Notes: generated from the letters alone by a model not told the origin. Positions 1,121-59,578 are shown, counted from the stretch's first letter. The stretch: DNA of 64,000 bases from a virus (IMGVR_UViG_3300035670_000170:4977-68976), one strand, 5' to 3'. Translations and numbers: made by a program.

Positions 1121-1186
1121 AGTGTAAAGATACGAATTGGATATGGCACGGTTTTTTTGCCGCACCCGATTTGGTATCTGATGGCA

Positions 1187-1214
1187 ATAAAAAAGGGGAG
1201 CGTTAACTCCCCTT
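1187..1214 (-). terminator. intrinsic terminator after SSB-like gene
   Basis: GGGGAG/CTCCCC stem with an A-run on the left (U-tail on the minus strand). Confidence 0.6.
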
Positions 1215-1240
1215 GGCTTAGTAAATCGGGCGCGACAATC

Positions 1241-1876
1241 TTAGAAAGGCAGATCATCTTCACCACCATCGTCAAACTTCTCATTACGGGCAAGTAGTTC
1301 CCCTTTCTTACTGGGGCGTTCTACACCACTTGGCACGTGTTGACTTGGGATAGTGTCAATCTTCTGTGGTATCTCTGACTTAACAAGCGACACAATGTGT
1401 TCCTCAAGGCGTGTCTTGTCAGAAATATCCTTTCCCTTAAACTTCACCTTATCAATGAACTTAGCCTGTTCGTCAAGGTCAAGTTTCCACGGTAGCTTTT
1501 GACCGTTCAGTTCCACATACGCGTTGTTGTACTTGTCTTTCTTGTACACGCTGATACGTAGCTTACCTGCAAGGCTATCGGCAGACAGCAGGCTGTTGAG
1601 GATAGATATACCCATTGATGAGCCAGTGTGGATGTCCACCTTGTATTGCTCATCCCCGTCGTGCATATTCAGCACGGCTTTGGTTTTCTTTTCCCCTTCG
1701 TACTCATACTCGCGGAACTCAATACCCGCAAGGGTGCCTTCGATGGTGTCAAAGGAATCAATCTCCTCATAGGAATCACCCATCTTTGCGATGCGCTTAA
1801 AGGCGGGTTTGTCTTCTGTGCTTCCTTTTAGGCGCAGGAAAATAGCGCTTCGTGCTTCACTGTTTGAGAGAGCCAT
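1241..1876 (-). CDS. putative single-stranded DNA-binding protein
   Basis: Beta-rich body, acidic tail ending DDGGEDDLPF, located in the replication module. Confidence 0.6.
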   Translation of the reverse strand: MALSNSEARSAIFLRLKGSTEDKPAFKRIAKMGDSYEEIDSFDTIEGTLAGIEFREYEYEGEKKTKAVLNMHDGDEQYKVDIHTGSSMGISILNSLLSADSLAGKLRISVYKKDKYNNAYVELNGQKLPWKLDLDEQAKFIDKVKFKGKDISDKTRLEEHIVSLVKSEIPQKIDTIPSQHVPSGVERPSKKGELLARNEKFDDGGEDDLPF

Positions 1877-1895
1877 GTTTATTTGGATTTAATGG

Positions 1896-2279
1896 TTACT
1901 TTTTGAATTTGCCCCTGAACATTTCGTCTATTATCAGACCTATTTGGCGGGCTTCCCGTTGGTTAATACGTATTTCTTCTTCCTTACCTTTTACTGTGGC
2001 GTTTAGGTTCTTGTCGACAGCAAATGTACCGTTTTCCAACTTAATTTCAACGTTTTTGTGGTGGAAATTGTGCAAATAATCAGGCACGCGAATACGACCA
2101 GCGCATAGCGCCCTTAGTATTTCTTCACTATCATACTGTCCCTTGTGGCGTATCTGTACCCACTCCCGCCCGTGGGGGGTGTCTACCTTTAGTTCGTACC
2201 GGAAGCCCTCTACAAACTCAAGTATGTGGGGGATACGGTAAGGGAAGTTCTGACTGAAGTATTGTTCTGCTTTATCCAT
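1896..2279 (-). CDS. hypothetical protein
   Basis: ORF between DnaB and SSB. Start moved to MDKAEQ after an A-rich leader. Confidence 0.65.
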   Translation of the reverse strand: MDKAEQYFSQNFPYRIPHILEFVEGFRYELKVDTPHGREWVQIRHKGQYDSEEILRALCAGRIRVPDYLHNFHHKNVEIKLENGTFAVDKNLNATVKGKEEEIRINQREARQIGLIIDEMFRGKFKK

Positions 2280-2316
2280 GTTAGTTGTTTTAGTTGGTAA
2301 ATCGGGCGCGACAATA

Positions 2317-3693
2317 TCAAAAAGGCACATCATCTTCGCCATACTCCCTCCTACGGTCAAAGTCTGCATTAGGTTTCACTACTGATTGAAATTCTTTTCT
2401 CCATTCACTAAACACACTCTGTTCTGGGTCAAACCTAAGTCTTATATCAGCAAGCGCACCGCCCCTGTGTTTAGATATGATAAACTCCGCCATGCCCACA
2501 GTGCTAAACCCTTCCTCATCCTGCATATCCCCATAGTATTCGGGTCGGTGTATAAACGCCACCATATCCGCATCCTGTTCAATAGCCCCCGATTCCCGTA
2601 GATTAGATAGCGTAGGTCTTTTACTGCCACGCTGCTCAACCGAACGGCTTAGCTGGCTTAGTGCAATAACAGGTATGTCCAACTCTTTCGCCAACACCTT
2701 TAGCCCACGGCTGATGCTACTAACTTCGTTCTCCCTGTTACCACCTTTCTCACCTGTCAACAGTTGCAGGTAGTCCAGTACAATCAGGTCAAGCCCATGC
2801 CTTGCCTTGTGGCGTGCCGCCATGCCGCGTAGTTCGTGGATGGTTAACGACGGGTCATCCCATATCCACAGGTTGTCCGTGGTGATTGCCGTAACGCCAT
2901 TATGTACCTTGTTCCAGTCAAGTAGCTTCGGTCGCCTAAAGGACGTGGTGTTGTATCCTGTTACGCGGGATAGTCGCCGCTTGTGTATTTCGTTGTTATT
3001 CATCTCAAGGCTGACCACCACGACCTTCTTTTTGAATTGCAGGGCTGCGTTATCTGCCATGTTCACGGCTAACATTGACTTACCCATTGCCGGACGTGCC
3101 GCAAGGATAATCAGGCTACTCTTTTGCCATCCCCCTGTTACCCTGTCAATGTCGTGGTACCCTGATGGGACACCTGTTATACCGTCTGATTCAATACTTG
3201 ATTCAATGTCCTTTATTACGTCCCTTAGTTGCTCTGCTGTTGTTTGGTGCGCCCGTTTTGGCATCGCTGATACATCCATAAGCCTTTTCGCGGCGTCTGT
3301 CAGTAACGTGTTAATAGGCTTTTTGATGTCTTGCGCGTCCGTGTATAGACCCCCAGCGTATGTGATTGTCTTACGTCGGATGTCAAGGTTGCATAGTAGG
3401 TCAATATACTCATCTAAGTGCCGTGCTGACGGGGCTACATTAAGTGATTCGGACAGGTACACGGCATCTACCTCACCGTATAGTTCCCGCATTTCGGTGG
3501 CTACCGTGACTAAGTTCACCGTCTTGCCCTTTTTGAACAGGGACATGGCGGCTTTGTATATCATGTTGTTATACTTATCGTAGAACGCTGTTTCAGGGAG
3601 TGCCGTGGCGCAGTCAAGGATGGCGTCGCTGTGCGATAGGATTGTGCCTATTACCCTACGTTCTAAGTCTAAGTCGTGTGGTGTTTCTGTCAT
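2317..3693 (-). CDS. dnaB: replicative DNA helicase DnaB
   Basis: N-terminal DnaB domain, Walker A AARPAMGKS, SLEM, LDYLQL, LSQLSR, LRESGAIEQDAD, KHRGG. Confidence 0.97.
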   Translation of the reverse strand: MTETPHDLDLERRVIGTILSHSDAILDCATALPETAFYDKYNNMIYKAAMSLFKKGKTVNLVTVATEMRELYGEVDAVYLSESLNVAPSARHLDEYIDLLCNLDIRRKTITYAGGLYTDAQDIKKPINTLLTDAAKRLMDVSAMPKRAHQTTAEQLRDVIKDIESSIESDGITGVPSGYHDIDRVTGGWQKSSLIILAARPAMGKSMLAVNMADNAALQFKKKVVVVSLEMNNNEIHKRRLSRVTGYNTTSFRRPKLLDWNKVHNGVTAITTDNLWIWDDPSLTIHELRGMAARHKARHGLDLIVLDYLQLLTGEKGGNRENEVSSISRGLKVLAKELDIPVIALSQLSRSVEQRGSKRPTLSNLRESGAIEQDADMVAFIHRPEYYGDMQDEEGFSTVGMAEFIISKHRGGALADIRLRFDPEQSVFSEWRKEFQSVVKPNADFDRRREYGEDDVPF

Positions 3694-3743
3694 TTATTCT
3701 TTGTTGGTTCGCCCGATTTAGCTGCTTCTGTTTAATTATCGTT

Positions 3744-4429: not shown

Positions 4430-4464
4430 CCAGAATTGACGTTACCAAATCGGGCGCGGCAAAA

Positions 4465-5121
4465 TTACTTGTCCCCGTCAGGATTCCATTCTTCTTTCTT
4501 AGCCCTTCCTTGTACAACCCATTCTAATGGGTCACGGTTAATATCCCTGCCGAACACAACACCAAACTTTCTGTACGCACCCTTATAGGCTAAACTCTCT
4601 GCTAACGGTAGCTTCTTTTGAAGTTCAAAGGGGTCGCGCATATCCTCAAGTAACGCACATCCAACGCCCATGTGTGACACGCCCGATTTGCTATCGCACA
4701 CCTCTGCCACCACCACCACGTTACCTACCTCTACGCGCCATTCCACAATGCGTGACGACCGAAAAGGCATCAGCACGTCGGCAGTGTCCTCAAGGTACTG
4801 TATTGGCACGTAGTTGACGTCGGGTAGCTGCGGGTGCTTGCGTATTGCGTCAGGCGGCACAGGGGAAGAAAATGATTGTGAAACCTTTTCCTCTACGGGC
4901 TGGTCAACCTTTTCTTTTGGCTGCTTATTTTTGGGTGTAATCAGTTTTATTTCGTCTATCTCGATTGACCAACGGGAGCCTGTGCCGCCTGACTTTGGGT
5001 TGTCCCAAGAAACATCTACGTCTTTTTTGGACACTAAGGCGACTGTCCCTGTACCGCCCTTGCGTATAAACTCATTACCAACAAGGCTCTTAACCCTGTC
5101 GCCTACCTTAAAATTGCTCAT
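4465..5121 (-). CDS. Sak/Rad52-like ssDNA annealing protein with N-terminal KVGDRV domain
   Basis: YVPIQYLE...GVG...AESLAYKGAYRKFGVVFGRDINR resembles Rad52/Sak, adjacent to an exonuclease. Confidence 0.65.
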   Translation of the reverse strand: MSNFKVGDRVKSLVGNEFIRKGGTGTVALVSKKDVDVSWDNPKSGGTGSRWSIEIDEIKLITPKNKQPKEKVDQPVEEKVSQSFSSPVPPDAIRKHPQLPDVNYVPIQYLEDTADVLMPFRSSRIVEWRVEVGNVVVVAEVCDSKSGVSHMGVGCALLEDMRDPFELQKKLPLAESLAYKGAYRKFGVVFGRDINRDPLEWVVQGRAKKEEWNPDGDK

Positions 5122-5137: not shown

Positions 5138-5878
5138 TTAAACTTCAATTACTTCTTCAATGGGTGTGTAGCTGCGCTTATCACACAGTTTGTTGAACAG
5201 GCAGTCAGCACACACGTTACAGTCCTTCGTGGGTATAGGCTCAAACTTGTTAACCATGTAGTCACGCACTTGGTCAATGATACGGTAGTGGTTTTCCATC
5301 GCTTCACTGCTGATACGGGCGCGGATAAACTTTATCCACCCGCTTTTGCCGAACACCAGATAGTAAAACGGGCGCACCACCCCATCGCGCAGGTAAGAAC
5401 CAAGGGTATAGTGTACAGCCTGTGTATGGTCAAGTGCATCAGGGACGCCCCACCCATACTTACCCTTGTCGTCTTTACGTGATGCAGTGTACTTAATGTC
5501 AATGATAACACTACTACCTTCGTAATCAGCAATGCAGTCAAGGTGAAACACCAAGTCCCCTTCAATGATTTCCGGCTGTACCTCTGTCACCTTTATGCCC
5601 ATCTTTGGTAGTGTGTTTTGCTTGTGGTACTTCGCCTGTGATACGGCTTGTGCTGCCCATGCGTAGCTTCCTTCCCCACGCTGTTTCTTTGGCGGCTCGA
5701 TCGTCTGGTGTCCCCGTGCGGCACCTATTAGTTCCTGTTCAAAGAGTAGGCCGGAGTACATTGCCTCTGTTGGCTCCGACCGTAGGCCGTCGATGTACTT
5801 TAGCTTGAGCATATAACGGCATCCGTCACGGTCTTGTACGTCCTTTATTAGGGACTGACTTATTAGTAGTTTATTCAT
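5138..5878 (-). CDS. PD-(D/E)XK nuclease (Cas4/RecB-like exonuclease)
   Basis: SQS..K...C, LDCI...IIDIK, Q...Y, C-terminal CxxC..C.....C cluster. Confidence 0.8.
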   Translation of the reverse strand: MNKLLISQSLIKDVQDRDGCRYMLKLKYIDGLRSEPTEAMYSGLLFEQELIGAARGHQTIEPPKKQRGEGSYAWAAQAVSQAKYHKQNTLPKMGIKVTEVQPEIIEGDLVFHLDCIADYEGSSVIIDIKYTASRKDDKGKYGWGVPDALDHTQAVHYTLGSYLRDGVVRPFYYLVFGKSGWIKFIRARISSEAMENHYRIIDQVRDYMVNKFEPIPTKDCNVCADCLFNKLCDKRSYTPIEEVIEV

Positions 5879-5920
5879 GTTGATTTGTTTTTTTGTTGCG
5901 CCCGTTTTGGTAAGGGAATC

Positions 5921-7371: not shown

Positions 7372-7419
7372 AGTTTTGTTCTTTTAATTCGCAACTGTAT
7401 TTATTACCAACCGTTACCA
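7287..7419 (+). other. attC-like hairpin B3
   Basis: GCACAAC; GTAATAAATCCAATTGC...GCAACTGTATTTATTAC; CAACC; GTTACCA. Confidence 0.78.
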
Positions 7420-7434
7420 AATCGGGCGATACAA

Positions 7435-7965: not shown

Positions 7966-8275
7966 TTTCTTTGATTTTACTTGTTCTACGTTTACGATTG
8001 CCTTTGGGTTGCGAAAATTCCGAAATACTTTTCACCTTTCCAACTTTTATTAGGTCGAAAGTTCTTTTCTGTCGGTTATTCATTCGCCTAACGGATGAGT
8101 GGTGGATGAGGATAGGCGTAACGATTTGCCCGTCATCCTTTTGGTACTGTGGCATAGCAAAACGGGCGCCCACCCAAAAATAGTCCGGCATATTCTCATC
8201 TCCCATTGGTATGACAACACACCCATTGACGTGTCTTACTTCTATCACGTCTACTTCTATTACGTAGTATGCCAT
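7952..8275 (-). CDS. hypothetical protein
   Basis: Start moved to MAYY, directly after the repeated leader. Confidence 0.65.
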   Translation of the reverse strand: MAYYVIEVDVIEVRHVNGCVVIPMGDENMPDYFWVGARFAMPQYQKDDGQIVTPILIHHSSVRRMNNRQKRTFDLIKVGKVKSISEFSQPKGNRKRRTSKIKENGKI

Positions 8276-8355: not shown

Positions 8356-8499
8356 TGCGGGGGTCGGGGCGCCCGATTAGGCAATGGATTCTTCGATTAG
8401 CTGAATCGCAATTTGTACAAGTTTAGCACGTGCCGCCCTTGCCTGATTTTACTTCTTCAATCTTTTTCATTGTTCTGTGTGTTTTTCAGTTAATTACCC

Positions 8500-8748: not shown

Positions 8749-8831
8749 TGTTCTTTGTTTTTTACGTTCTTTGTTTCTGAAAGGTTACGATTCAAATATC
8801 ATTTTACCAAATCGGGCGCGGCAAAAATAGG

Positions 8832-9193: not shown

Positions 9194-9240
9194 GGTTTCT
9201 ATTTGTTTAGTTGTTAATAATTCCTTACCAAATCGGGCGC

Positions 9241-11792: not shown

Positions 11793-12847
11793 GGTTTCTA
11801 TTTGTTTATTTGTTTTACGTTGTTTTGTGCCGTTGTGTTACCAAATCGGGCGCCTCAATTAAAAGAGTAAGCATACCTTTTAGCTTCCATTGCAAGCCCC
11901 CATATAGTAGGGGTGAATTTGTATCGCTTCATGGTTTCTGTGTTTTTAATTATACTTCTTGTACGGCATCAGCGGAAACAAGGTTACAAAAAAATAGCAA
12001 AAAATAACCACGAATTTTATGCCGCTGACTGCCAATGAGTTACAGCACGTTGACGAACAAAAAAATTTGAGTTGTCTGTTTTTTTCGTCCAAGCCGTTTG
12101 TAAATGGCTAATTTTCAAACTTTGGCACGGTTTTATTTTTGTGCCGTTGTGTTACCAAATCGGGCGCGACAAAGAAAGGGAAACCACATAGGCACCAACA
12201 GTAGAGAAAGGAACAGACCAACAAAGGTAGCACACACACCAACGGGCAAAGCATGGATGAATTTGGCACGGTGGCTATCCCGTCCTTTAATCCTTTCAAT
12301 CTGCCGGAATTACTTGGCAAACGCCGTGAAACGGGCAACGAACAAACGGTGCGGGTGCCTGTGTTTTGGTTGTGCTGTCCCGTAATATGCATTATGTTAA
12401 ATTGTGGCGCAATTAGTCGGGCTGCGCGGCCTGTTAACTGCCTGAACGTCACCGGACGTACAAAATTTTCCGGTATGGGGCATGGGGTGGCGGAAACGGT
12501 TTTCCTTTGGCCGACCCACCCCCCGATACATACATACAACCCCACCCCGAAGCCTGCGTTGACCAGTTCTAAACGCCAGTGGTTTACAGCCACTTAGGGC
12601 AAACACCAAAAATTTGACTACTATGTATCAACCACTTGCGTATCCATTTCTGCTGGACTAAAATTATTTGTGCGATATTGGCTTTTGTGTTGTTGTTTAT
12701 TTGGCAAAAATGCGAAGTGTTCGCGGGGCGGTACAAATTATGTTTGGTTTGTTTGGGTATTTTGTGGTTAGGCGATGATTTTTGTAAAAATTGGTGTAAC
12801 CTTGTTGTGTGGTGATGCGTAATAATGGGAAACAAAAACACAGAAAT

Positions 12848-13563: not shown

Positions 13564-13624
13564 TTACCAAATCGGGCGAAACAAATAAATCGTGTTGTCC
13601 GTATAACGATCAAATCAAAAGAAC

Positions 13625-14235: not shown

Positions 14236-14612
14236 CAAAGCAGAAGAAGATGGTTAAGGCGCTGAGGGAACTTTTTAGGGAGGCGTATAAGAAGGCTGAG
14301 CCTGTGGGGGACTATGATGCGCTGATGGCTGACTGGGTTAGGCGTAGGGATGAATACTTTTTGTCGCGCCCGAATTGCCATCCTGCTGATGTGCAGCGTG
14401 ACTTTTTGGAGGAGAATGTGCCTTTTTACCGCTACCACTACTTAGACGAAAGGGTGTTTGGCGCTATGGTCAGGTACTATGTAAAAAGTCTAAGGCTTAC
14501 CCACCTGTTAGAAAGACAGTTTTGTGCCTCTGCCCACCTTGGGGAAGCGCCGTCGGGTAATAGGGAAGAAGTAATGAGGCTAAGGAAAGAAATGTTTGGG
14601 GAGGGTGGGTAA
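14232..14612 (+). CDS. hypothetical protein
   Basis: 126 aa, ATGA overlap with the previous gene. Confidence 0.7.
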   Translation: MTKQKKMVKALRELFREAYKKAEPVGDYDALMADWVRRRDEYFLSRPNCHPADVQRDFLEENVPFYRYHYLDERVFGAMVRYYVKSLRLTHLLERQFCASAHLGEAPSGNREEVMRLRKEMFGEGG

Positions 14613-14636
14613 TTTTGTCGCGCCCGATTTGGTAGG

Positions 14637-14720: not shown

Positions 14721-14918
14721 ATGGCTAAGAGAAGGAAACGCACTGGTTCAAAGTGCATGGTTTGTGGTAAAAAGGTCGTTTGGGGAAGGGACGGTCGCCC
14801 TTTTATGTCGGATGGGCTTGAAACGGGGGCGTTATTCGGCGCATGGATTGGCATGAAACACTACCATTGCGAAAATAATTTCGACAAAAACGAAACCCTT
14901 AGCAAAACGGGCGCGTAG
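14721..14918 (+). CDS. small Cys/His hypothetical protein
   Basis: 65 aa with CxxC...HxC. Confidence 0.55.
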   Translation: MAKRRKRTGSKCMVCGKKVVWGRDGRPFMSDGLETGALFGAWIGMKHYHCENNFDKNETLSKTGA

Positions 14919-15252: not shown

Positions 15253-15332
15253 CCCGCCCGATTTGGTATGCAATTAGATCGTGTCTTTAACGGTTTTAGC
15301 CAAATGCGTACTTTTGTGTAAACACTAATGAT

Positions 15333-15842: not shown

Positions 15843-15904
15843 TTTTTTTTTCTTAGAAACGAAACCCTTACCAAAACGGGCGCGTAGAAGAAAGAAAAAA
15901 CAAC

Positions 15905-28409: not shown

Positions 28410-28498
28410 TAATAAAACGGGCGCCACAAAGAAAAGGTTTCACTTCCAATAAAACAATAGTGAATTAAGTAGTATTTTTGTAACAAACAAAGCCCTAA

Positions 28499-51200: not shown

Positions 51201-54200
51201 TGGGTTGCCAGAGGGTACGGTTGCCACCGTGGAGGACTTGGCGGCTGCATACTTAGAAGCACAGAACCCCGACGTACAAACACTTAGGGACGGACTACGG
51301 GGGCTACGCGTTAACCGTGACAGCTTTGTGCAGTTCGCTGACAAGAACTATATCACACAAGGGCTTGCCCGTGCGTGGTTCACCCGCAAGAAAGACAGGT
51401 CAGGTCGTGACCTTGACGAGATAGCACAGGAAATATCTGAAATGCGGGGACAAGAGGTAACACCACAGGACATTGTTGATATTATTGTTGAGAATCCAAA
51501 CGGGATACCGCAACGTTCTGAAAGGGCTGCCCGTATAAATGACCTGTACAAACAGAAAACAGGCAAGAACCTAAACACCAGTGTCGCAGCAAAGATACTG
51601 AACAAAAGGGGCGTTAAGGCCGTAAACAACGATATTGTAAAGGATGTCCTAAACATATTTGTAGGGCCATCAGGGAATATAAACACAGACGAACTAATAC
51701 GTGAAATAGAATCAGGCCCCGACTTCTTTATGGCGTGGCCTTACAGTCTAACAATGCAGGAATATGAAGAACTCAAAAAAGCAATCGCAGACCCAAAACG
51801 ACGAGAAGAAATACTTGGAGAAGCTACAAATTTTAAGAAAGACTATTCATGGGTTGAGGGATTTGACGAAGACTACGGAACCCAAGAAGAAGGAGGTATA
51901 GATGCCATTCAAGAGCAAGGCGCAACTGCGGTGGATGTACAAGAACAAGCCGCAGATGGCGAAAAGGTGGTCGAAGGAACACCCGAATCAGGACGTGAAG
52001 AAGCTGCCCAAGAAGGTCAGGAAGCGGTAAGTTTTGAAGCCGCCCGTGCAGTAGAACCACCCATCAAAGAGCGTGTTGAGCTTACGGGCACACGTGCAGA
52101 CCGGGTGGTGATAGATCGCATCAAAGAGGGCGCAAGCGAAAGCGCCAAAGCCCTGTTGGATAGGCTACCTAATGTTATGAAGGCGTTAAGGCGTTCAGGT
52201 GTTAACGTGCGTATAGTGCTACACCCATCGGCAGAATCGTTTAATGGCGTTGACGGTGAAACAGTTTCTATGCGTACTGGCAACGCTAAGATACTGCCTG
52301 ACGGCACCATCCACATTGATATGTCAAGTGCCACCACCACAGCAGGTAGCCTTGTGCATGAGGCCGTACACCAAGTTATATCTGACGTCATCGCCGCCGA
52401 CCCTATCAGGTTAGCAAAGATGGCTAACGACCTACGTGACACACTGAAAAAGGCTATGCCTGACGTGCATGAGGACTTGGAGGAATTTACCCAGCAGTAT
52501 GAGCCACAGGAGCGTGATGAGGAGTACGTCGCTGAATTTATGGCGATGGTGGCTGACGGGTACGTAGATATTGACAAGCTATCACCGCCAAAGAGGAAGT
52601 CTGTCTTAGAATGGTTTAACCGTTTGTTAAACGCTTTTGGCTTTGATTCCGTGAAGATTACAGATACCATGTCAGCTATTGACGTGGCGGCTGCGATCAA
52701 TAGGGCATTGGAGGAAGGTGTTAGGATAAAGTCAAAGGTGTCGAAAGCAAATCGGGCGCCCCAAACACGCCAGCAGAAGTTCTTAGACCGTATGAACGCA
52801 AGCCGTGATTCAAAGGGTCTACCACGTTGGGGCGAAAAGAAGCAGAAGTCATTAGAGCAGCAAGCCAAGGAAATGGCTGACGACCTAATAAAGGACTTCC
52901 CAGACGAAGAAACAAAGAAGATGTACGACTTTGCGTACAGCTACCACCTACGTCAGTTACAGGCACAGAACAAGCCTAAGTACCAGCGTGTACAAAGAAT
53001 ATCACCGGAGTTCAGAAAGGGATTGATAAAGCTATCCAAGCAGTACATAGAGAACGGTACACCCAAAGACCAGATAATAGAGGGGCTAAAGGAACAGGGA
53101 ATATTGTCATCACAGGCTAACGCTATTTACACAGAGGCAAAGAACCAAACCCTCAACGACATATCCCAAACAGACCCCATCGTAAAGGATGCTGTTAAGC
53201 AGCTTGAAAGCGGCATTAAGATAAGTGAGGTATCACAAAATGTGATAGCAGCACTGCCGGACAACAAAAAGGCACTGTCGGCGTTCTACGTGGCGGCGGC
53301 AATGAACAGGTACCTGTCACGCCCTAACGACTTTAAGGCTACCATCGACAAGAAGGTCGCTGAAATAAAGCAAAAGGCTAAAGATAAAGCCGAATTAAAG
53401 GGGGATAAAGACAAGGCGGCTAAAGAGATCAAGAAAGCCAAAGCAGCTATCAAAAGGGCTATGCGTGGCAAATCGGGCGACAAAAGGCTATTCGCCCGTG
53501 ACAAGACAACGCTAAAGACATTTGTGGGTATAAACCACAACCAACTATCAGACGAATCAAAGGCTGAATACCTTGCCGTATTAGCATCAGTGGCATCGTC
53601 AGTATCACCTGTTAAAGTATCAAACATAGAGGATGAATACATAGCACAGAACGCCCGTAGGGAATACACCAACGACGATATAGATGCGCTGAACGAAAAG
53701 TATTTGGCAGAGGTGGATAGCGAGAAGCGCCGCAGACTGCTTGACAAAGTGGCGTCATTCTACTCACAGATGGATATGGCGTTACCGGAGGAGTTTGGGT
53801 CAATGACAGTATCCGACCTTCAGGCATTAGCCGCCAACATCCTATCGGAAGAACAGCTACCTGATGTTGACAAGGAACAGGAACAGCAGCTAAAGCGTCA
53901 GGCACTACTTGAACTGGCGGCTGAATACGTTGCCGAAGCAGTGGCGGCTATGGACAGCGGGGTGATAGACACTGAATCAATGACCCCGTTGGAGAAGCGT
54001 ATCATTGACGGTATTTCAAACGGTAGCGTGGATGCCCTGTCGCTGAACGAGATAAAGACGTTGATAAAGGGGATGGATAACTTCGTTACCAACGGCAGCT
54101 TAGACGGCATGGGTAAGATTGCAGCACGCATGGAAGCCCCCGCCATCGTTAAGCAGTTCTTGGCGGAAAAGGTGAAGATGTGCGTGAAGTTCGGGAACTT

Positions 54201-56580
54201 GGATTTCTTTACCCGCTTTGCTGGCAGCATGGAGCAATACGTGGAAAGCGTCGCTGGCAGTAGCCGCCTTGGGGCTAAGTTCTATGCCATGAGTGGCATG
54301 GCACAGGTGTACGCTGGCGGTAGCCGTGCCGACAAGCGCATGGTTGACGGGTTCCTAAACCCATTAGGGGAACTGTACAAGAAATACCCAGATACCAAGA
54401 CACCCGAATCCATCATGGCGCGATTCATATACGGGTTTATGAATCAGAACTATGGCGGCACAGCCGATGAGGTAGCCGCAGAGTTTGAGCGCAGGAAAGG
54501 GTTGTTAGTGTCAGACATTGAGGCAAAGAAAAAGTCAAAGCGTAAAGACCTACGTGAGCAAGCGGAGCTGGAACAGCGGATGTTCGATATGCTTGTGGCT
54601 GACGCGTCGACAATAAAGGACGTTGTTTCTGCCATGACAAAGAACGGTCACACAGGCGCCCGTGAGATTGTTGACTTAGCCGTGTCGTTTGCCAGCACAT
54701 ACGCTAATGAGTACGACGAGATTAGTAGGGTTTACAATAACAACACCCTTGACCTTGTAAACAACTACTTGCCCAATAAGACAAAGAAAACAGCTATTAT
54801 CAGGGACGAAGACCTTGGCATAGATCAAGACATCAACTCTGTTGACCCATCGGTAATGACACCCAGTTCGACAAAGAACAGGTTTAAGTCCATGAAGCGC
54901 TTAGAGGGTAGCCGTGTTTACGACGTGGACTTCGACGCTATGGTTACTAATGAGTTCCGTCATGCCTTAACCTACATTGAAACCCTACCACACATCATGC
55001 GCTTTAAGGCCGTGATGAACACCAATGATTTGATTGAGGAGATGGGCGAGAAGAACGTTAAGTTCTTAGACCTGAAGATGACTAATGGTGTTAAGATTCT
55101 ACGGCGTATGTACCCCAGCGATGAGTATGCCCGTGCGCTGTCAAAGGCGACGTCGGGGTTAGCGTCGTTGGGTGCCAACATAAGCCTTGCGGGTATCACC
55201 CAGCCCATGAAACAGGTGTTACCTGTTGCGTTCAGGGCGATGACGGCGGCAGCAGTAAGAAAGAAGGGCGCAGCGGCGGCACTACACACAACCCTTAGCG
55301 GTGCTAACTACAACGAAGGGCTGTTCTCTAAAGGGACTATCCTAAGCCGCAAGGAAACACGCGGTGGCTATCAGTTTGAGCGCTTAGAGGATTCTGTTGT
55401 CAAAGCCCAACGCGGCGTCCTGTCGAAAGCCTTTGGTAAGTACCTGTCGGCGCGTCGTAAGGCAGCAGACCTAACGATGTACCCATTAACACAGTCGGAT
55501 TACTTTGCTGCGCGTAAGGCGTGGGTGTCGTACTATGCAGAGAATCTACTTCAAAGGGGCGTGTATAAAAGCTGGCGCGACATTGACTGGCAAAAGGAAT
55601 CAGCAGACCCAAATGAAGAAGCGTCGGCGTATGCAGAGATAATGCTGTCACGTTCACAGAACGTCAATACTATGGCGGCGGCGTCGGAAATGATGACGCG
55701 TACAGGTGGATATAAGGACATTTGGCGAAATATCTTTTTCCCCTTTGCGTCGTTCACGATGAATAACAACGTCACCCGTTGGATAAACTTTAAGCGGTTG
55801 CTGTGGGGCAGTCCGACAGAAAAGGCTATTGCCTTTGGGGACATCACCGCACAGGGGGTGGAGGCACTGGCGTTTAACAGCATTAAGCTGTTGTTGATAT
55901 ACCCACTTAGGATATACCTTGTCAAGGAAGTTCTAAAGGCTATGTTCGACTATGACGATGAGGAGGTGGATGCTATCGTGTCGTCAAATGAACTACCGCA
56001 CCGTGTACACCAAGTCATTGCCCAGTCTACCATTGATATGACCTTCGGGGGCTTCTCATCGCAGTCTGACATGGCAGTGAAGTATGCCGTTAACGACTAT
56101 TACAAGAATGTGCTACTGCCGTTCTTTGACGTGGACACAGACAAGGATTTGTTCTATCAGGGTAACATGAGTAGCGATGAGATCAGTACGTTCTTGTCGT
56201 CTATTGGTTCTTACGGTATATTGGCGCAGCAGTTGTTGGACATAGCTGATGTTGCTGAAAGCACGATGTTTGGCTTTAGTGATACTATCATGCTTGACCC
56301 AAACCCGTTTGATGCAAGCACGGAAAAGGTGGAGTACAAGATGACCGAAGACCAGCAGCGGGCGTTACAGATGTATTTGATATTCCACGGAGTCACGATG
56401 TTGACGGGCTTAAACGACGTTGACGCACGGACTATTGTGAATAAAATTCAGAAGGGGGTAGAGCGTGATATTAAGAGGGGTGGTAAAACGGGCGGGTCAA
56501 ACAGTGGCACGTTAGAGGCCAAGCCGATGTCAGGGCGTTCGTTAAGCACCCAAAGCCTGTCGTCAAGGCGTCTAAGATAG
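48226..56580 (+). CDS. giant virion cargo/polyvalent protein with zincin-like motif
   Basis: 2784 aa; LVHEAVH...EEYVAE at about 52351-52540; Gly/Ala hydrophobic segments. Confidence 0.65.
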   Translation: MNDKALQALYKDLSGEYEVGSYDDFKSYMANPTNRKKLYDNVIVKRYNVSDYNQFESTYATAPAQGEPVKKKESTIGGIASEASVSEAQSTSQGDELAVQAEVTDTKTGAPKQGIGALAVSVIPTKDEVAYKTISSQRQKAVDRDIDANAQATISEIASSISPETEAQIQTEYENYKATLPIPQKPKDYNQYRLDYIKDYYGIKDSKGIADIDARYKAKSEAAKRQRELDEAVSVFAKKFSERPSSPIYSNLLNATKLIEKPKEGDDKAEPVDVSGRFKRNIDTPAGTTTVDILTQGISSVPEGGIQFYANNSPRRVYVGGVDSKPESFAVDELGNRTDEPDKVKQSLSQFTPNTADALTPVDDNQYAIFKKVIEDYATENPEKAKQIGRPQTLYSQSWDRGDYRLKQEWDVVKDGAFVREAIKYQKEKLANEYTQRVTQLEKQFAQDIAARPDKQAVYDSDFEVQKANLALQYNSAEKYLDLMYNGYVRANIKNADRVETEIAYQQAERDIKEIEAMREADKQWYNKQNAVVQFGVDVWDGFADAGKEIVRGVESLGYLATGTDMPDEQKRFYVQYDAMRAGSDESLVRDATSMIAQTAAIMAPAGWIGGTLKTLGVGAKVAQTTGIVTSSYLQTAGTSYIDAMAQGMDSETAMVYGNVMGLSQGFVEAIFPSDYLFGGVRTQMKKNIVNILKNASPAEIRRMTSGQVIRSAFSEFANETKKEMVEEVAAYLSEKGINFTMNQVTGKDILDDEVTIKDMANAAGGAAIVGTFFGGSRVIKSFKNSAVFPVQMQYEYLAASDPDGVMEKIEFAKKEGALTDVQYKNAKDRLNSLVEQKKAVDAASPEMSEFNKAVLVNMRADKDEAVKYAKTLDETDPVDARILQTMNEKIATIDALQNDILKGEDAGKAYAKYLNESMGIISRGVEEAGTQQPQAEVIPDGVVVEDIPDEDAFSVFGFEQMSGEQLADIQEQIDLRESGYDEMAEIIAKELGLPEGTVATVEDLAAAYLEAQNPDVQTLRDGLRGLRVNRDSFVQFADKNYITQGLARAWFTRKKDRSGRDLDEIAQEISEMRGQEVTPQDIVDIIVENPNGIPQRSERAARINDLYKQKTGKNLNTSVAAKILNKRGVKAVNNDIVKDVLNIFVGPSGNINTDELIREIESGPDFFMAWPYSLTMQEYEELKKAIADPKRREEILGEATNFKKDYSWVEGFDEDYGTQEEGGIDAIQEQGATAVDVQEQAADGEKVVEGTPESGREEAAQEGQEAVSFEAARAVEPPIKERVELTGTRADRVVIDRIKEGASESAKALLDRLPNVMKALRRSGVNVRIVLHPSAESFNGVDGETVSMRTGNAKILPDGTIHIDMSSATTTAGSLVHEAVHQVISDVIAADPIRLAKMANDLRDTLKKAMPDVHEDLEEFTQQYEPQERDEEYVAEFMAMVADGYVDIDKLSPPKRKSVLEWFNRLLNAFGFDSVKITDTMSAIDVAAAINRALEEGVRIKSKVSKANRAPQTRQQKFLDRMNASRDSKGLPRWGEKKQKSLEQQAKEMADDLIKDFPDEETKKMYDFAYSYHLRQLQAQNKPKYQRVQRISPEFRKGLIKLSKQYIENGTPKDQIIEGLKEQGILSSQANAIYTEAKNQTLNDISQTDPIVKDAVKQLESGIKISEVSQNVIAALPDNKKALSAFYVAAAMNRYLSRPNDFKATIDKKVAEIKQKAKDKAELKGDKDKAAKEIKKAKAAIKRAMRGKSGDKRLFARDKTTLKTFVGINHNQLSDESKAEYLAVLASVASSVSPVKVSNIEDEYIAQNARREYTNDDIDALNEKYLAEVDSEKRRRLLDKVASFYSQMDMALPEEFGSMTVSDLQALAANILSEEQLPDVDKEQEQQLKRQALLELAAEYVAEAVAAMDSGVIDTESMTPLEKRIIDGISNGSVDALSLNEIKTLIKGMDNFVTNGSLDGMGKIAARMEAPAIVKQFLAEKVKMCVKFGNLDFFTRFAGSMEQYVESVAGSSRLGAKFYAMSGMAQVYAGGSRADKRMVDGFLNPLGELYKKYPDTKTPESIMARFIYGFMNQNYGGTADEVAAEFERRKGLLVSDIEAKKKSKRKDLREQAELEQRMFDMLVADASTIKDVVSAMTKNGHTGAREIVDLAVSFASTYANEYDEISRVYNNNTLDLVNNYLPNKTKKTAIIRDEDLGIDQDINSVDPSVMTPSSTKNRFKSMKRLEGSRVYDVDFDAMVTNEFRHALTYIETLPHIMRFKAVMNTNDLIEEMGEKNVKFLDLKMTNGVKILRRMYPSDEYARALSKATSGLASLGANISLAGITQPMKQVLPVAFRAMTAAAVRKKGAAAALHTTLSGANYNEGLFSKGTILSRKETRGGYQFERLEDSVVKAQRGVLSKAFGKYLSARRKAADLTMYPLTQSDYFAARKAWVSYYAENLLQRGVYKSWRDIDWQKESADPNEEASAYAEIMLSRSQNVNTMAAASEMMTRTGGYKDIWRNIFFPFASFTMNNNVTRWINFKRLLWGSPTEKAIAFGDITAQGVEALAFNSIKLLLIYPLRIYLVKEVLKAMFDYDDEEVDAIVSSNELPHRVHQVIAQSTIDMTFGGFSSQSDMAVKYAVNDYYKNVLLPFFDVDTDKDLFYQGNMSSDEISTFLSSIGSYGILAQQLLDIADVAESTMFGFSDTIMLDPNPFDASTEKVEYKMTEDQQRALQMYLIFHGVTMLTGLNDVDARTIVNKIQKGVERDIKRGGKTGGSNSGTLEAKPMSGRSLSTQSLSSRRLR

Positions 56581-57866: not shown

Positions 57867-57867
57867 T

Positions 57868-58101
57868 ATGAAATACAAATTTGAACAATTCAAAGTAACA
57901 ATAGACAACCCAACGGTAACGGTTGACATGAATACCATTCGGGATAAAGCTATTGACAAACTTTTGAGCGTGGACATTATATTAACAACCAACACGGCTT
58001 CGTTTGGCGTAACGGCTGAAGATATGCCATACGACCCAACGTGGGAGGACGACATGGTTCAGGATATGGTTAATAATTGGCTTGTGCAATTTGAAGTGTA
58101 A
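57868..58101 (+). CDS. small partner of fibre protein 1
   Basis: 77 aa, NP.V...TWED..V; paralog-like to 58790..59155. Confidence 0.65.
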   Translation: MKYKFEQFKVTIDNPTVTVDMNTIRDKAIDKLLSVDIILTTNTASFGVTAEDMPYDPTWEDDMVQDMVNNWLVQFEV

Positions 58102-58166
58102 TTTTTATAGTTTACACAAGTATATTTTTTTTTACAAAAGATTATACTTATTTTATTCTTCGATTT

Positions 58167-58793
58167 ATGGGGGCATTTGGGAAAAGCGGTAGTGGTATTT
58201 ACAAGATGGGTGGTGATGGTGCATGCCCTGAAAGGTATAATTCTGCCAACCCTTACAAGACGGGACAAACCACATCGTATGTAAGCAACGATGATGGCGA
58301 TTTAGAACGTGGTAGAGGTTCGGATTTCACAACGCTTGACTTTAATAACCCGTTTGGAAACACCAATAGATTTACCGACACGCTGGGCGGTCAGACGTAT
58401 GCGAATGATATTGTTATTGATTGGGCGACTACCAACTACATAGCGGAAACAGTTATCGGTTGGTATCGGGTAGTTCAGGGTGGTGCAGGAGTTAATTGGA
58501 CTACGGCAATGGCAGCACAACCAGTAACGGCAGAGGGGTACAATGATTGGTACGTGCCCAATAAGAATGAATTTACTTTAATAATTAGCAGCGAGAATAG
58601 TATAAACTACAATCCTTTTAGTTTAACCCATAACTTGTGGACATCAAGTTCGCGCGATGCAAGTGCGGCAAGAGTTTATCAAGAAACACAAAAAGATTTA
58701 CAAAGTCAAACAAAAACATTGACATTGCTAAATGGTAACGCAATAGGCTACATATTACTACGTTACTTCACCTTCACAGAATTAGGACTATGA
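58167..58793 (+). CDS. DUF1566/Lcl C-type-lectin-like fibre protein 2
   Basis: Same motifs (KTGQTTSY, GYNDWYVPNKNE, LWTSS); first 58 nt identical to protein 1. Confidence 0.8.
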   Translation: MGAFGKSGSGIYKMGGDGACPERYNSANPYKTGQTTSYVSNDDGDLERGRGSDFTTLDFNNPFGNTNRFTDTLGGQTYANDIVIDWATTNYIAETVIGWYRVVQGGAGVNWTTAMAAQPVTAEGYNDWYVPNKNEFTLIISSENSINYNPFSLTHNLWTSSSRDASAARVYQETQKDLQSQTKTLTLLNGNAIGYILLRYFTFTELGL

Positions 58794-59155
58794 TACCAAT
58801 TAAAAACACATTTGAAGTCGAAACCCATCCGGGGGTTACGATAGTAAACCCCGACATTGAATTGGTGACTACGGTGGACATCGCCCGTGATGAGGTGTTT
58901 CAGCCTACGGTGATAATCCACGCAGAAAACATAAAGATTTACCACGTGCTGCCCTTGCAGCCATACGTTGACGGAACGTGGACGGATGAGGACGTTGACA
59001 ATGCAATAGTTAATTACTTCACGCTGTTTGGCGGCAGGGCTTCAAGGAAGTCGGTTAGGATGCCAAATCGGGCGGGACAAAAGAAATTGAAGGCCATAAA
59101 AAAAACAACGATATGGAAAAGGATATTGTCATACCTAAAAAAACTATTCGCATGA
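58790..59155 (+). CDS. small partner of fibre protein 2
   Basis: NP.I...TWTDEDV with a basic C-terminal extension. Confidence 0.6.
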   Translation: MIPIKNTFEVETHPGVTIVNPDIELVTTVDIARDEVFQPTVIIHAENIKIYHVLPLQPYVDGTWTDEDVDNAIVNYFTLFGGRASRKSVRMPNRAGQKKLKAIKKTTIWKRILSYLKKLFA

Positions 59156-59394
59156 TACACAACGTAGACAACTTGAAGGAATCAATATCCGACGTAATAG
59201 GATGGGGCGGCACGATTATGGCTGTCAGCTTCCCGCTTTTGGACGGCTTACAGCAATGGGCGCAAACACTTGGCGCCTGTGGTGGTGTCGTCCTCCTCTT
59301 TATCACAATCATAAACAAGGTGCGTGATTCACGGATAAAGAAGTTAGAGATTAAGAAACTTGAAAAAGAGATTAACGATGCAGAAGGTTTATGA
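59152..59394 (+). CDS. holin-like membrane protein
   Basis: Hydrophobic segments plus a charged C-terminus, in the lysis region. Confidence 0.5.
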   Translation: MIHNVDNLKESISDVIGWGGTIMAVSFPLLDGLQQWAQTLGACGGVVLLFITIINKVRDSRIKKLEIKKLEKEINDAEGL

Positions 59395-59578
59395 CTTTGT
59401 AGGCGGTCGCAAGATGTTTGTGGCCTTCCTGTTGTTCGCCCTTAGTGGGTCGCTGTGGTTCTTTAACCGTGACATCATGGCATCCGACCTGTTCCAGTTT
59501 TGGGAGTGGGTAACGGCAATCCTTGTGGTGGGAAATGTAAGTAGTAAGTTCGCTAATCGGGCGCCCGAAAACAAATGA
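59378..59578 (+). CDS. holin-like membrane protein
   Basis: GGRKMFVA, two TM helices, VGNVSSK. Confidence 0.6.
   Translation: MQKVYDFVGGRKMFVAFLLFALSGSLWFFNRDIMASDLFQFWEWVTAILVVGNVSSKFANRAPENK

What the first reader, a model, noticed from the sequence alone, without database searches (positions are those of the whole stretch)
1161..59565. The motif appears to polarise local strand composition: A/C-rich 3' of plus copies, G/T-rich 5' of minus copies
Seen by eye, regardless of gene direction. After plus copies the sequence turns A/C-rich for a few hundred bp (after 8820, 12168, 15884, 20803, 23646, 28425, 38720, 40128, 43025, 45831, 48555, 49396). Before minus copies it is strongly G/T-rich (14100-14365, 15100-15255, 23050-23340, 27450-27690, 39720-39877). 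The portal gene starts A/C-rich and ends G/T-rich between two inward-pointing copies. Established: C>T and A>G deamination on exposed ssDNA enriches G+T on that strand. Inference: each motif launches a directional process (strand displacement, priming, nick translation or a tracking modifier) that leaves a mutational or selective footprint. That would imply dozens of oriented mini-origins or loading sites.
Basis: partly seen in the sequence, partly recalled or inferred. Interest (0 to 1): 0.85.

Follow-up and report, generated by a model that had tools for sequence, protein, structure and literature searches.

The report
Oriented phage motif with A/C-rich tail
A 69-kb phage of Bacteroidota-type carries about 48 copies of a directional 27-base motif, each followed on the same strand by a stretch rich in A and C, and relatives with quite different motifs show the same tail, so this looks like a new kind of strand-specific signal in phage DNA whose job is not yet known.

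Summary
The genome holds 48 oriented copies of sgwTACCAAAWCGGGCGCsnCAAa (45 in the window). On the motif strand the 3' flank is A/C-rich. Keto skew at +26..300 is -0.090, against -0.006±0.014 for orientation-matched random sites (0 of 2000). At fourfold sites it is -0.181 (z -5.4). It is significant to +300 nt, and the 5' flank is flat. It holds for copies co- and anti-oriented to genes and for deep intragenic copies.

Ten of 48 copies lack it, and the portal gene's "G/T-rich end" is not confirmed.

The pattern replicates in two other lineages of related podophages with unrelated cores: TCGGYATTG (48 copies) and TRCACAATT (94-101 copies). Cores are conserved there.

Polarised substitutions show no excess flux towards A/C, only a deficit of A/C>G/T changes. 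This favours constraint over a deamination scar, with modest power.

It fits no tested family:
- gene promoters (mostly intragenic, one third antisense);
- T5/tf-type nick sites (both strands; tf sites show no skew);
- host Chi (sparse in 151 Bacteroidota genomes).

My best reading, at 0.35, is dispersed strand-specific initiation or loading sites read on single-stranded DNA. No reads were available to test nicks or 5' ends.

The parts
1162..1174 (-). motif copy (13-nt core, 1 mismatch); A/C tract lies 3' on the - strand
   Evidence: keto skew +26..300 on motif strand -0.178
1221..1233 (+). motif copy (2 mismatches, AWCGGGCG intact)
   Evidence: downstream skew +0.040: no tract
2297..2309 (+). 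motif copy (2 mismatches)
   Evidence: -0.113
3249..3261 (-). motif copy (exact core)
   Evidence: -0.084
3709..3721 (-). motif copy (2 mismatches)
   Evidence: -0.142
4445..4457 (+). motif copy (exact core)
   Evidence: -0.156
4679..4691 (-). motif copy (2 mismatches)
   Evidence: +0.062: no tract
5363..5375 (+). motif copy (2 mismatches)
   Evidence: +0.055: no tract
5898..5910 (-). motif copy (exact core), 24 nt before an ATG
   Evidence: -0.193
7417..7429 (+). motif copy (1 mismatch)
   Evidence: +0.055: no tract
8157..8169 (+). motif copy (1 mismatch)
   Evidence: +0.069: no tract
8369..8381 (-). motif copy (1 mismatch)
   Evidence: -0.040
8807..8819 (+). motif copy (exact core)
   Evidence: -0.084
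9228..9240 (+). motif copy (exact core)
   Evidence: +0.062: no tract
11841..11853 (+). motif copy (exact core); shares its 12 printed upstream bases with the copy at 12155
   Evidence: +0.098: no tract
12155..12167 (+). motif copy (exact core)
   Evidence: -0.033
13567..13579 (+). motif copy (1 mismatch)
   Evidence: -0.135
14366..14378 (-). motif copy (1 mismatch), antisense inside a + gene
   Evidence: -0.229
14620..14632 (-). motif copy (exact core)
   Evidence: -0.120
14902..14914 (+). motif copy (1 mismatch), 24 nt before ATG of 14938-15252
   Evidence: +0.236: no tract beyond +25
15254..15266 (-). motif copy (exact core), directly after the stop of 14938-15252
   Evidence: -0.244
15871..15883 (+). 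motif copy (exact core); flanks nearly identical to the copy at 14902
   Evidence: -0.178
20589..20601 (-). motif copy (exact core), antisense in a + gene
   Evidence: -0.105
20792..20804 (+). motif copy (CGGGCGG variant)
   Evidence: -0.127
23342..23354 (-). motif copy (1 mismatch), antisense in a + gene
   Evidence: -0.258
23632..23644 (+). motif copy (exact core)
   Evidence: -0.055
26904..26916 (+). doubtful copy (2 mismatches, CCCTAACGGGCGG)
   Evidence: -0.004
27302..27314 (+). motif copy (exact core) inside terL
   Evidence: +0.142: no tract
27695..27707 (-). motif copy (exact core) just after terL
   Evidence: -0.127
28412..28424 (+). motif copy (2 mismatches) 75 nt before the portal ORF
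   Evidence: -0.229
30948..30960 (-). motif copy (exact core) 14 nt after the portal stop
   Evidence: -0.018: hardly any tract
32740..32752 (+). motif copy (exact core)
   Evidence: -0.113
38707..38719 (+). motif copy (exact core), intragenic
   Evidence: -0.113
39878..39890 (-). motif copy (1 mismatch)
   Evidence: -0.185
40115..40127 (+). motif copy (exact core), intragenic
   Evidence: -0.222
40856..40868 (+). motif copy (CGGGCGG variant)
   Evidence: -0.113
43012..43024 (+). motif copy (exact core) inside the muzzle-like gene
   Evidence: -0.207
45818..45830 (+). motif copy (1 mismatch) inside the muzzle-like gene
   Evidence: -0.135
48542..48554 (+). motif copy (exact core) inside the 2784-aa ORF
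   Evidence: -0.309
49383..49395 (+). motif copy (1 mismatch) inside the 2784-aa ORF
   Evidence: -0.200
52747..52759 (+). motif copy (1 mismatch) inside the 2784-aa ORF
   Evidence: -0.178
53468..53480 (+). motif copy (2 mismatches) inside the 2784-aa ORF
   Evidence: -0.120
56483..56495 (+). motif copy (2 mismatches)
   Evidence: +0.069: no tract
59063..59075 (+). motif copy (CGGGCGG variant)
   Evidence: -0.069
59552..59564 (+). motif copy (2 mismatches)
   Evidence: -0.047

Best explanation
Each copy is a composite, strand-oriented cis element. It has a sequence-specific core of about 27 nt here, followed on the same strand by a tract enriched in A and C and depleted in G and T. The tract runs about 300 nt here, about 150 nt in lineage G001 and about 40 nt in lineage G004-6.

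SHOWN:
- The tract exists and is polar.
- It is written into synonymous sites and also into amino-acid choice.
- It does not depend on the direction of the gene it lies in.
- It recurs in three lineages with unrelated cores.
- In the one clade with close relatives, the cores are conserved and the tract loses fewer A/C bases than its flanks do.

INFERRED:
- A strand asymmetry of this kind changes nothing in a duplex, so the element is read when the DNA is single-stranded.
- The most likely use is a genome-wide set of strand-specific initiation or loading sites. A phage protein recognises the core on the complementary strand, at the 3' end of the G/T-rich stretch. It then starts synthesis, or loads a filament or helicase, along that stretch. 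The product has the A/C-rich sequence.
- The tract is then a preferred template or product composition, kept by selection.
- Part of the longer tail in this genome could still be a deamination footprint of the same single-stranded state.
For: 1. Existence and polarity: (z -5.8 at all sites, -5.4 at fourfold sites, 0 of 2000 matched random sets as low).
2. DNA level rather than mRNA level. In this genome, co-oriented copies give -0.097 and anti-oriented -0.101. In G004-6 the tract is -0.18 (co) and -0.19 (anti), and conservation is 40/47 (co) and 16/20 (anti). The core sits in all three reading frames and both orientations.
3. Independent replication with other cores. G001: 48 copies, z -3.7 at +10..50 and -3.8 at +51..150. 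G004: 96 copies, z -8.3.
4. Constraint. 62 of 76 alignable cores are intact across about 83-90% identical genomes. A/C>G/T changes are depleted in the tract (45/1220 vs 250/4532, p 0.01), with no rise of G/T>A/C. The G-poor block at +11..+40 is sharp.
5. The density is one copy per 0.7-1.4 kb with random spacing (CV about 1).
6. Precedent for the geometry. The NrS-1 PrimPol recognises an 8-nt template site and starts at the first base 5' of it (PMC8718748, passages). RSF1010 RepB' primes on two 40-nt ssi sites (abstract in the listing). From recall: T7 primase makes primers of A and C only on G/T-rich template sites.
7. G004 and G001 carry a Prim-Pol-like helicase gene next to an SSB-like gene. 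The SSB-like gene is the only early gene that BLAST finds in all five motif-bearing genomes.
Against: - No primase was found in the window's own genome. It has DnaB, an SbcD-like exonuclease, a PD-(D/E)XK nuclease and a methylase.
- The three lineages have different replication modules. A link to one phage primase is therefore not supported.
- The Prim-Pol hit in G004 is below Pfam's cut-off (21.6 vs 22.8 bits).
- Most copies point the same way as the genes (about 2:1). If forks run with transcription, that is the leading-strand direction, not the lagging-strand one.
- The idea that the tract keeps single strands free of hairpins holds only here: 60-nt DNA MFE -3.2 vs -4.9 kcal/mol, p 0.0015. 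It does not hold in G001 or G004 (p 0.32 and 0.92).
- 10 of 48 copies have no tract, 6 of them + copies in the early block.
- Known primase sites are 3-8 nt, not 27.
- No read, 5'-end or RNA data exist for this phage.
Confidence: 0.35

Rival explanations
1. Mutational footprint. A process launched at the motif leaves the complementary strand single-stranded for tens to hundreds of bases. C>T and A>G deamination there makes it G/T-rich. The tract itself has no function.
For: - The sign of the skew fits.
- The effect is largest at fourfold sites: A rises from 0.25 to 0.40, G falls from 0.25 to 0.16, T falls from 0.28 to 0.21.
- In this genome it decays gradually to about 300 nt.
- In G004/5 the ratio of T>C to C>T rates rises about threefold in the tract (my division of the rates), about as much as the C/T composition shifts (my division's frequencies).
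Against: - In G004/5 the per-site G/T>A/C flux is not raised (34/534 vs 250/4514, p 0.43).
- G>A is 5/150 vs 72/1300. The change lies in fewer A/C>G/T events.
- The tract in G004-6 is a sharp block of about 40 nt with position-specific preferences.
- Amino-acid choice shifts too (first and second codon positions, z -3.9).
- Power is low (5 G>A events), and no test was possible in the window's own lineage.
Confidence: 0.2
2. Promoters. The core is a promoter for a phage-directed RNA polymerase, and the tract is an A/C-rich, G-poor 5' part of the transcript. This would suit ribosome loading without a Shine-Dalgarno sequence in Bacteroidota.
For: - 19 of 48 copies lie between genes.
- 10 of those point at a gene start, 7 of them within 120 nt.
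- Several are followed by A-rich leaders and an ATG.
- A-rich, SD-less leaders in Bacteroidota are recalled knowledge.
- Long, information-rich cores resemble single-subunit RNAP promoters (recalled).
Against: - In G004-6, 80-87 of 94-101 copies are inside genes, and only 14-18 of 71-88 genes have one within 150 nt upstream.
- About a third are antisense, with the same tract and the same conservation.
- Intergenic copies point at gene starts and gene ends about equally: 10:9, 10:6, 9:5, 8:5, 4:8.
- No RNA polymerase was found. The 2784-aa ORF has no Pfam hit and no D[FY]DxD motif, and DFDxD occurs in no called protein except one site in the muzzle-like gene.
- Transcription-linked mutation is known to give the opposite sign, G+T excess on the non-template strand (recalled).
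Confidence: 0.15
3. Site-specific nick sites of the T5, tf or phiKMV kind. A phage nickase cuts at the core, and the tract reflects what happens 3' of the nick.
For: - The sites are short, asymmetric and conserved.
- The T5 major-nick consensus R/GCGCRGG (PMC3517423, passages) shares GCGC with CGGGCGC.
- There is a weak HNH endonuclease hit at the left edge of the window.
- Nicks would give a natural entry for resection or strand displacement.
Against: [quoted passage not shown] Here the split is 32 + and 16 -.
- The 14 mapped tf sites and 9 LUZ24 sites show no skew: +3..50 gives -0.036 and +0.065 with null sd 0.045-0.051.
- Nicks could not be looked for. All four runs that hold the phage are kept as contigs only.
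Confidence: 0.1
4. Chi-like sites. The complement of the core is read from its 3' side by a helicase-nuclease. The G/T-rich stretch 5' of it becomes the 3' tail on which a recombinase loads.
For: - The geometry matches Chi (recalled): the tail runs 5' from Chi on the Chi strand, and RecA prefers G/T-rich DNA.
- The element is oriented, dense and present in both orientations.
- The phage carries SbcD-like and PD-(D/E)XK nucleases.
Against: - It is not a host-genome motif. TRCACAATT reaches at most 233 copies in 6.1 Mb among 151 Bacteroidota genomes, at least 35 times sparser than in the phage, and mostly 1-5 times its reversed control.
- Cores of 9-27 nt that differ between related phages are unlike the 5-8-nt host Chi.
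- A phage-encoded reader is not excluded.
Confidence: 0.07

Closest known systems
Primase recognition and single-strand initiation (ssi) signals: T7 gp4 sites, the NrS-1 PrimPol site TTTGGTTA, RSF1010 ssiA/ssiB
   Same: All are strand-specific and read on single-stranded template, with synthesis starting next to the site and running to one side. T7 sites have G/T-rich template and A/C primers (recalled). The NrS-1 enzyme starts at the first base 5' of an 8-nt site (PMC8718748, passages). Density is similar to Okazaki-fragment spacing. The complement of this genome's core contains ATTTGGTA, which I treat as a lead only.
   Different: The cores here are 9-27 nt, not 3-8. A compositional tract of 40-300 nt has not been described for these signals. 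ssi signals are hairpins at one origin, whereas these are 48-101 dispersed copies. No primase was found in this genome.
Localised nick sites of phages T5, tf/LUZ24 and phiKMV
   Same: A short asymmetric consensus repeated through a phage genome, partly inside genes, with function still unknown (PMC3517423, passages).
   Different: Those sites number 4-14 and all lie on one strand. tf and LUZ24 sites carry no compositional tail. Here there are 48-101 sites on both strands with a tail.
Chi sites
   Same: Oriented, over-represented and read from one side on a single strand. The neighbouring G/T-rich strand would be the recombinase substrate (recalled).
   Different: Chi is a host-chromosome motif of 5-8 nt. 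These cores are phage-specific, longer, and sparse in 151 Bacteroidota genomes.
Replication- or transcription-linked strand compositional skew
   Same: A keto/amino asymmetry that is strongest at synonymous sites.
   Different: Known skews span replichores or transcription units and switch at origins and termini. This one is reset at each copy of a sequence motif and lasts 40-300 nt. Its sign is opposite to the transcription-linked one if the motif were a promoter (recalled).
Phage promoters (T7-like promoters; middle promoters of crAss-like phage phi14:2)
   Same: Information-rich motifs repeated through the genome. Some copies sit before genes. The phi14:2 middle promoters are a tripartite motif found mostly between genes and in sense direction (bioRxiv 10.1101/2020.03.07.982082, passages).
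   Different: Most copies here are intragenic, a third are antisense, and there is no preference for gene starts. I could not see that paper's Supplementary file 1 with the promoter logos, as supplements are closed.

Membership tests
T5/tf-type localised nick sites | All sites lie on one DNA strand | tested here: not met
   There are 32 + and 16 - copies. G001 has 18 + and 30 -; G004 has 39 + and 57 -. The one-strand rule comes from PMC3517423 (passages).
T5/tf-type localised nick sites | A physical nick (3'-OH/5'-P) at the site in virion DNA | not testable with these tools
   The four runs holding the phage are kept as Logan contigs, which cannot show ends.
Chi sites | Strong over-representation in the host chromosome | tested here: not met
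   TRCACAATT reaches at most 233 copies per genome in 151 Bacteroidota genomes. The true hosts are unknown.
Chi sites | Short core of 5-8 nt read by RecBCD/AddAB | tested here: not met
   The conserved block is about 27 nt here and at least 9 nt in the relatives. The reading enzyme is not testable.
Phage gene promoters | Sites lie upstream of genes and point the way of the genes | tested here: not met
   This genome: 21 intragenic co-oriented, 8 intragenic antisense, 10 intergenic pointing to a start, 9 intergenic pointing to a stop. G004-6: 80-87 of 94-101 copies are intragenic.
Phage gene promoters | Transcripts start at the sites | not testable with these tools
   No RNA holder was listed.
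Phage gene promoters | A phage RNA polymerase or sigma factor in the genome | tested here: inconclusive
   There are no Pfam or PHROG hits for an RNAP among the 43 proteins scanned. The 2784-aa ORF has no D[FY]DxD motif. Many ORFs remain unannotated.
Primase recognition / ssi signals | Synthesis starts at the site on single-stranded template | not testable with these tools
   This needs biochemistry or end mapping.
Primase recognition / ssi signals | A cognate primase encoded by the element's genome | tested here: inconclusive
   G004 has a 688-aa protein hitting PF09250 Prim-Pol at E 3.4e-4, below the cut-off. G001 has a homologue at 22% identity. None was found in the window's genome.
Mutational strand skew from single-strand exposure | Strongest at neutral (fourfold) sites | tested here: met
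   Fourfold sites give -0.241 at +26..150, against -0.084 at second codon positions.
Mutational strand skew from single-strand exposure | Raised per-site G>A and T>C flux on the motif strand in polarised substitutions | tested here: not met
   In G004/G005 with G006 as outgroup, G/T>A/C is 34/534 vs 250/4514 (p 0.43) and G>A is 5/150 vs 72/1300. Power is low, and the test was not done in the window's own lineage.

The most novel reading that the evidence does not exclude
A group of Bacteroidota podophages uses a genome-wide address system. Dozens to a hundred copies of a lineage-specific oriented core each mark where a strand-specific process starts on single-stranded DNA, either priming or the loading of a replisome or recombinase. 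The first tens to hundreds of bases are tuned, or scarred, to an A/C product and a G/T template. This would be a sequence-addressed, multi-site way of starting DNA strands. It is unlike single origins with short primase triplets, and its address code changes between related phages.
Probability: 0.3. Interest if true: 0.85.

Novelty: new variant of a known kind. Interest (0 to 1): 0.7.

Why it matters
Dispersed oriented motifs in phage genomes, such as nick sites and Chi-like words, are old puzzles with few functional answers. Here a motif comes with a second, measurable property: a polar compositional tail. That tail says which way, on which strand and roughly how far the linked process acts.

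The feature recurs in three lineages with different cores, so it can be used to find such elements by computation. If the sites start or load something on single strands, they would show how these abundant, uncultured Bacteroidota phages copy or repair their DNA. They would also give oligonucleotide substrates for direct tests with the Prim-Pol-like and SSB-like proteins.

If the tail is a scar after all, it is a natural map of single-strand exposure at base resolution.

I found no description of such an element. The searches (listings only) returned nothing that fits. The phi14:2 and tf papers (passages) describe other motif classes.

Tried and rejected
- **Reads.** One search found four DNA runs of one study, all kept as contigs, and no RNA holder was listed. 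Laying them on 12000-31999 gave no read ends and only one variant letter. The loose ends at motif copies are assembly branch points. There is therefore no test of nicks, 5' ends or expression.
- **Closer relatives of the window's phage.**
  - The IMG/VR scan with TerL gave 4 loci at 38-39% identity.
  - The scan with a 3-sequence TerL alignment gave 80 loci, best 50%.
  - The JGI metagenome scan gave one locus at 38%.
  - The 5.8-billion-protein search gave a best match of 50%.
  - No polarisation was therefore possible in this lineage.
- **Exact core in other records.** I found only single chance hits.
- **k-mer screen.** I screened 63 related loci of at least 9 kb. Dispersed two-strand motifs appear only in L074-076 and in L034/L037. 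Other high counts were tandem coding repeats (L126, L127, L140, L132, L143), clustered iteron-like repeats (L089), hairpin repeats (L088), or 8 copies without a tail (L078).
- **Relatives without the element.** Cultured relatives elemoC, phi46:3 and Gundel_1 have no such motif. phi38:1 has a 10-copy word. A Manatee Spring phage has a 16-bp palindrome 14 times. The closest TerL relatives G007 and G008 (partial contigs) lack the element.
- **Regular spacing.** Rejected: CV is 0.96-1.16.
- **Back-to-back pairs closer than face-to-face pairs.** This is a trend in all five genomes but significant only in G006 (35 of 2000).
- **Hairpin-free tract.** Supported only in this genome, not in G001 or G004.
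- **AT-rich unwinding element.** Rejected: A+T in the tract equals the background.
- **crAss-type virion RNA polymerase.** Neither giant ORF has a D[FY]DxD motif.
- **Motif-linked gene.** BLAST finds only an SSB-like gene shared by all five motif-bearing genomes. Its model has pLDDT 62, only weak OB-fold matches and none at E 0.001 or better. I treat this as an association, not a mechanism.
- **Skew at the known nick sites of tf and LUZ24.** None was found.
- **Host Chi.** Not supported.
- **Supplements.** They are closed, and I did not ask for them. Supplementary file 1 of the phi14:2 preprint (promoter motifs) and Fig. S2 of the tf paper could bear on the promoter and nick comparisons.

Full report
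**What the window is.** The window is bases 4977-68976 of a 68,976-bp IMG/VR virus record with a 103-bp terminal repeat.
- Genes run leftward up to about 12 kb, rightward from about 12.6 to 60.5 kb, and leftward again at the end.
- TerL and portal match PHROG families. A 1212-aa protein carries the crAss muzzle domain.
- The nearest cultured relatives by TerL, at 26-35% identity, are Flavobacterium, Cellulophaga, Tenacibaculum and Maribacter phages. So this is a podophage of Bacteroidota type.
- Early genes include DnaB, an SbcD-like exonuclease, a PD-(D/E)XK nuclease and an N6/N4 methylase. There is also an amidoligase-like/GATase-like pair and an SSB-like protein ending in DLPF.
- I found no polymerase, primase or RNA polymerase.

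**The motif.** The finding does not spell the motif out. The listed coordinates show it to be CCAAAWCGGGCGC.
- AAWWCGGGCGC occurs 31 times in the window against 0.13 expected.
- In the whole genome there are 38 copies with at most 1 mismatch (0.37 expected) and 54 with at most 2 (6.4 expected).
- I worked with 48 copies (32 +, 16 -) and dropped 6 weak ones.
- The aligned copies show a conserved block of about 27 nt, sgwTACCAAAWCGGGCGCsnCAAa. After it there is no positional conservation, only a compositional bias.

- On the motif strand the keto skew is flat upstream. Downstream it is -0.18 at +26..50, about -0.10 to +200, about -0.05 to +500, and zero beyond.
- Against 2000 sets of random sites matched for orientation to the local genes, the +26..300 value of -0.090 lies 5.8 sd below the mean, and no set reaches it.
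- At fourfold sites the value is -0.181 against +0.015±0.036.
- By window, the effect is significant to +300 and marginal at +301..500.
- At fourfold sites within +26..150, A rises from about 0.25 to 0.40 while G and T fall. This holds whether the motif strand is the coding or the template strand.
- The effect is the same for co-oriented and anti-oriented copies. It is strong in 15 copies deep inside genes.
- Shuffling synonymous codons within genes leaves -0.062 of the -0.090 (0 of 300 shuffles as low). Protein composition is nevertheless bent the same way.

**Exceptions.**
- Ten copies have no tail.
- The ten + copies in the early block average -0.017.
- The 3' end of the portal gene is not G/T-rich (+0.027).

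**Replication elsewhere.** The exact core is not multi-copy in any other IMG/VR or GTDB contig. Relatives found through TerL have cores of their own.
- G001 (69.5 kb, TerL 38%) has 48 dispersed copies of TCGGYATTG on both strands. G002 carries many identical copies with the same printed flanks, and G003 is a fragment carrying the same core.
- G004, G005 and G006 (63-70 kb, TerL 40%) have 94-101 copies of TRCACAATT, against 0-1 for the reversed word.
- In each, the 3' flank on the motif strand is A/C-rich and the 5' flank is flat.
  - G001: -0.108 at +10..50 (z -3.7) and -0.072 at +51..150 (z -3.8).
  - G004: -0.183 at +10..50 (z -8.3; fourfold -0.376, z -6.8), and nothing significant beyond +50.
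- A fine profile over 280 distinct G004-6 contexts shows a G-poor block from about +11 to +40 after the core (G 0.06-0.13 against 0.175). Some positions have their own preferences.
- Of 63 related loci screened, only these lineages show the element.
- The closest TerL relatives of the window's phage (G007 at 50%, G008 at 43%, both partial contigs) do not show it. Nor do elemoC, phi46:3 or Gundel_1.

**What kind of signal it is.**
- In G004-6, 80-87 of 94-101 copies lie inside genes, in all three frames and both orientations. The ratio of sense to antisense is about 2:1.
- Antisense copies have the same tail (-0.19 against -0.18) and the same conservation (16/20 against 40/47) as sense copies.
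- Intergenic copies point at gene starts and gene ends about equally often.
- So the element is not an mRNA signal and not, as a rule, a gene promoter.
- Spacing is random (CV about 1).
- A+T is not raised in the tail, so it is not a melting element.
- An amino/keto asymmetry between strands does not change the duplex. I therefore infer that it matters when the strands are apart.

**Scar or constraint.** G004 and G005 are about 90% identical, and G006 is an outgroup at about 83-85%.
- 62 of 76 G004 cores alignable in both other genomes are intact in all three.
- I polarised substitutions around 89 cores. At third positions in the tail, G/T>A/C is 34/534 against 250/4514 in the flanks (p 0.43), and G>A is 5/150 against 72/1300.
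- A/C>G/T is 45/1220 against 250/4532 (p 0.01; against the rest of the genome p 4e-7). C>T is 9/350 against 59/972 (p 0.011).
- The composition is thus held by fewer losses of A/C, not by more gains. I read this as constraint.
- A lowered deamination of the motif strand would look similar, counts are small, and parsimony with one outgroup is rough.
- In this window's genome the tail is longer and more gradual, and a mutational part cannot be excluded.

**Tests of known families.**
[quoted passage not shown] Here both strands carry them. The 14 tf and 9 LUZ24 sites have no tail.
- *Host Chi.* The G004 core is at least 35 times sparser in each of 151 Bacteroidota genomes than in the phage.
- *Promoters.* See the section above on what kind of signal it is. 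No RNA data exist.
- *Priming signals.* The geometry fits. NrS-1 PrimPol reads an 8-nt template site and starts at the first base 5' of it (PMC8718748, passages). T7 primers made of A and C are recalled knowledge.
  - G004 and G001 carry a Prim-Pol-like helicase beside the SSB-like gene.
  - The window's genome has DnaB and no primase that I could find.
  - The replication modules differ between the lineages.
  - The majority orientation is that of the genes.
- *Hairpin-free tail.* This is supported only in this genome.

**Verdict.** It is not explained by gene direction or by protein composition alone. The same architecture recurs in three phage lineages with different cores, where core and tail look constrained.

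The element fails the membership tests for nick sites, host Chi and gene promoters. Membership among priming or loading signals cannot be tested with sequence alone.

The searches (listings) and the papers read in passages gave no description of such an element.

Noticed in passing
window 1241-1876 (-): A 211-aa protein with an acidic tail ending in DLPF. The tail is invariant in 5 of 5 homologues. Fold matches to OB domains are weak (model pLDDT 62). It is probably an SSB, and it is the only early gene that BLAST finds in all five motif-bearing genomes (G000, G001, G004-6). In each genome it lies next to the replicative helicase gene.
   Followed up: partly
window 9687-11792 (-): A 405-aa protein resembles amidoligases (PF12224) in the ESM Atlas. 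It sits beside a 282-aa protein with faint class-II glutamine amidotransferase hits. The pair could modify a base or a small molecule. Homologues occur in the Manatee Spring phage MW202828.
   Followed up: partly
window 48226-56580 (+): A 2784-aa ORF follows the muzzle-like gene cluster, in what I recall to be the place where crAss-like phages keep their virion RNA polymerase. It has no Pfam hit and no DFDxD motif. The giant ORFs at the same place in G001 (2083 aa) and G004 (2624 aa) are barely or not at all similar to it.
   Followed up: partly
window 14890-14940 and 15860-15910; 11829-11853 and 12143-12167: Two pairs of motif copies share much longer identical flanks, for example acgaaaccctta...GTAGAAGAAAGAAAAA before an ATG. 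These look like duplicated regulatory regions rather than independent copies.
   Followed up: no
window 23447-24856 (+): A 469-aa protein with a family-2 glycosyltransferase domain lies in the late block just before terL. An earlier first-stage note describes a six-gene GT/methyltransferase cluster at 19982-24856.
   Followed up: partly
MW202828 (W01), whole record: This related 60.9-kb phage carries 14 copies of the perfect 16-bp palindrome GTGTCGTTAACGACAC. This is a different, symmetric high-copy site.
   Followed up: no
L148 4907-5557, 5712-6506 and 10455-11675 (G004): The TRCACAATT phage encodes a serine recombinase (Resolvase domain), an N6/N4 methylase and a C5 cytosine methylase in its early block.
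   Followed up: no
proteins P0003, P0016, P0019, P0040, P0074, P0083, P0096: Several TerL relatives are about 1030-1075 aa long and carry PF14528, some also PF05204/PF05203. I recall these as LAGLIDADG/Hint families, which would mean intein-bearing terminases in this phage group.
   Followed up: no
window 12172, 14620, 23648, 27688, 27713: Contigs of the public runs break or branch exactly at motif copies. These are assembly-graph forks caused by the repeat, not biological ends.
   Followed up: partly
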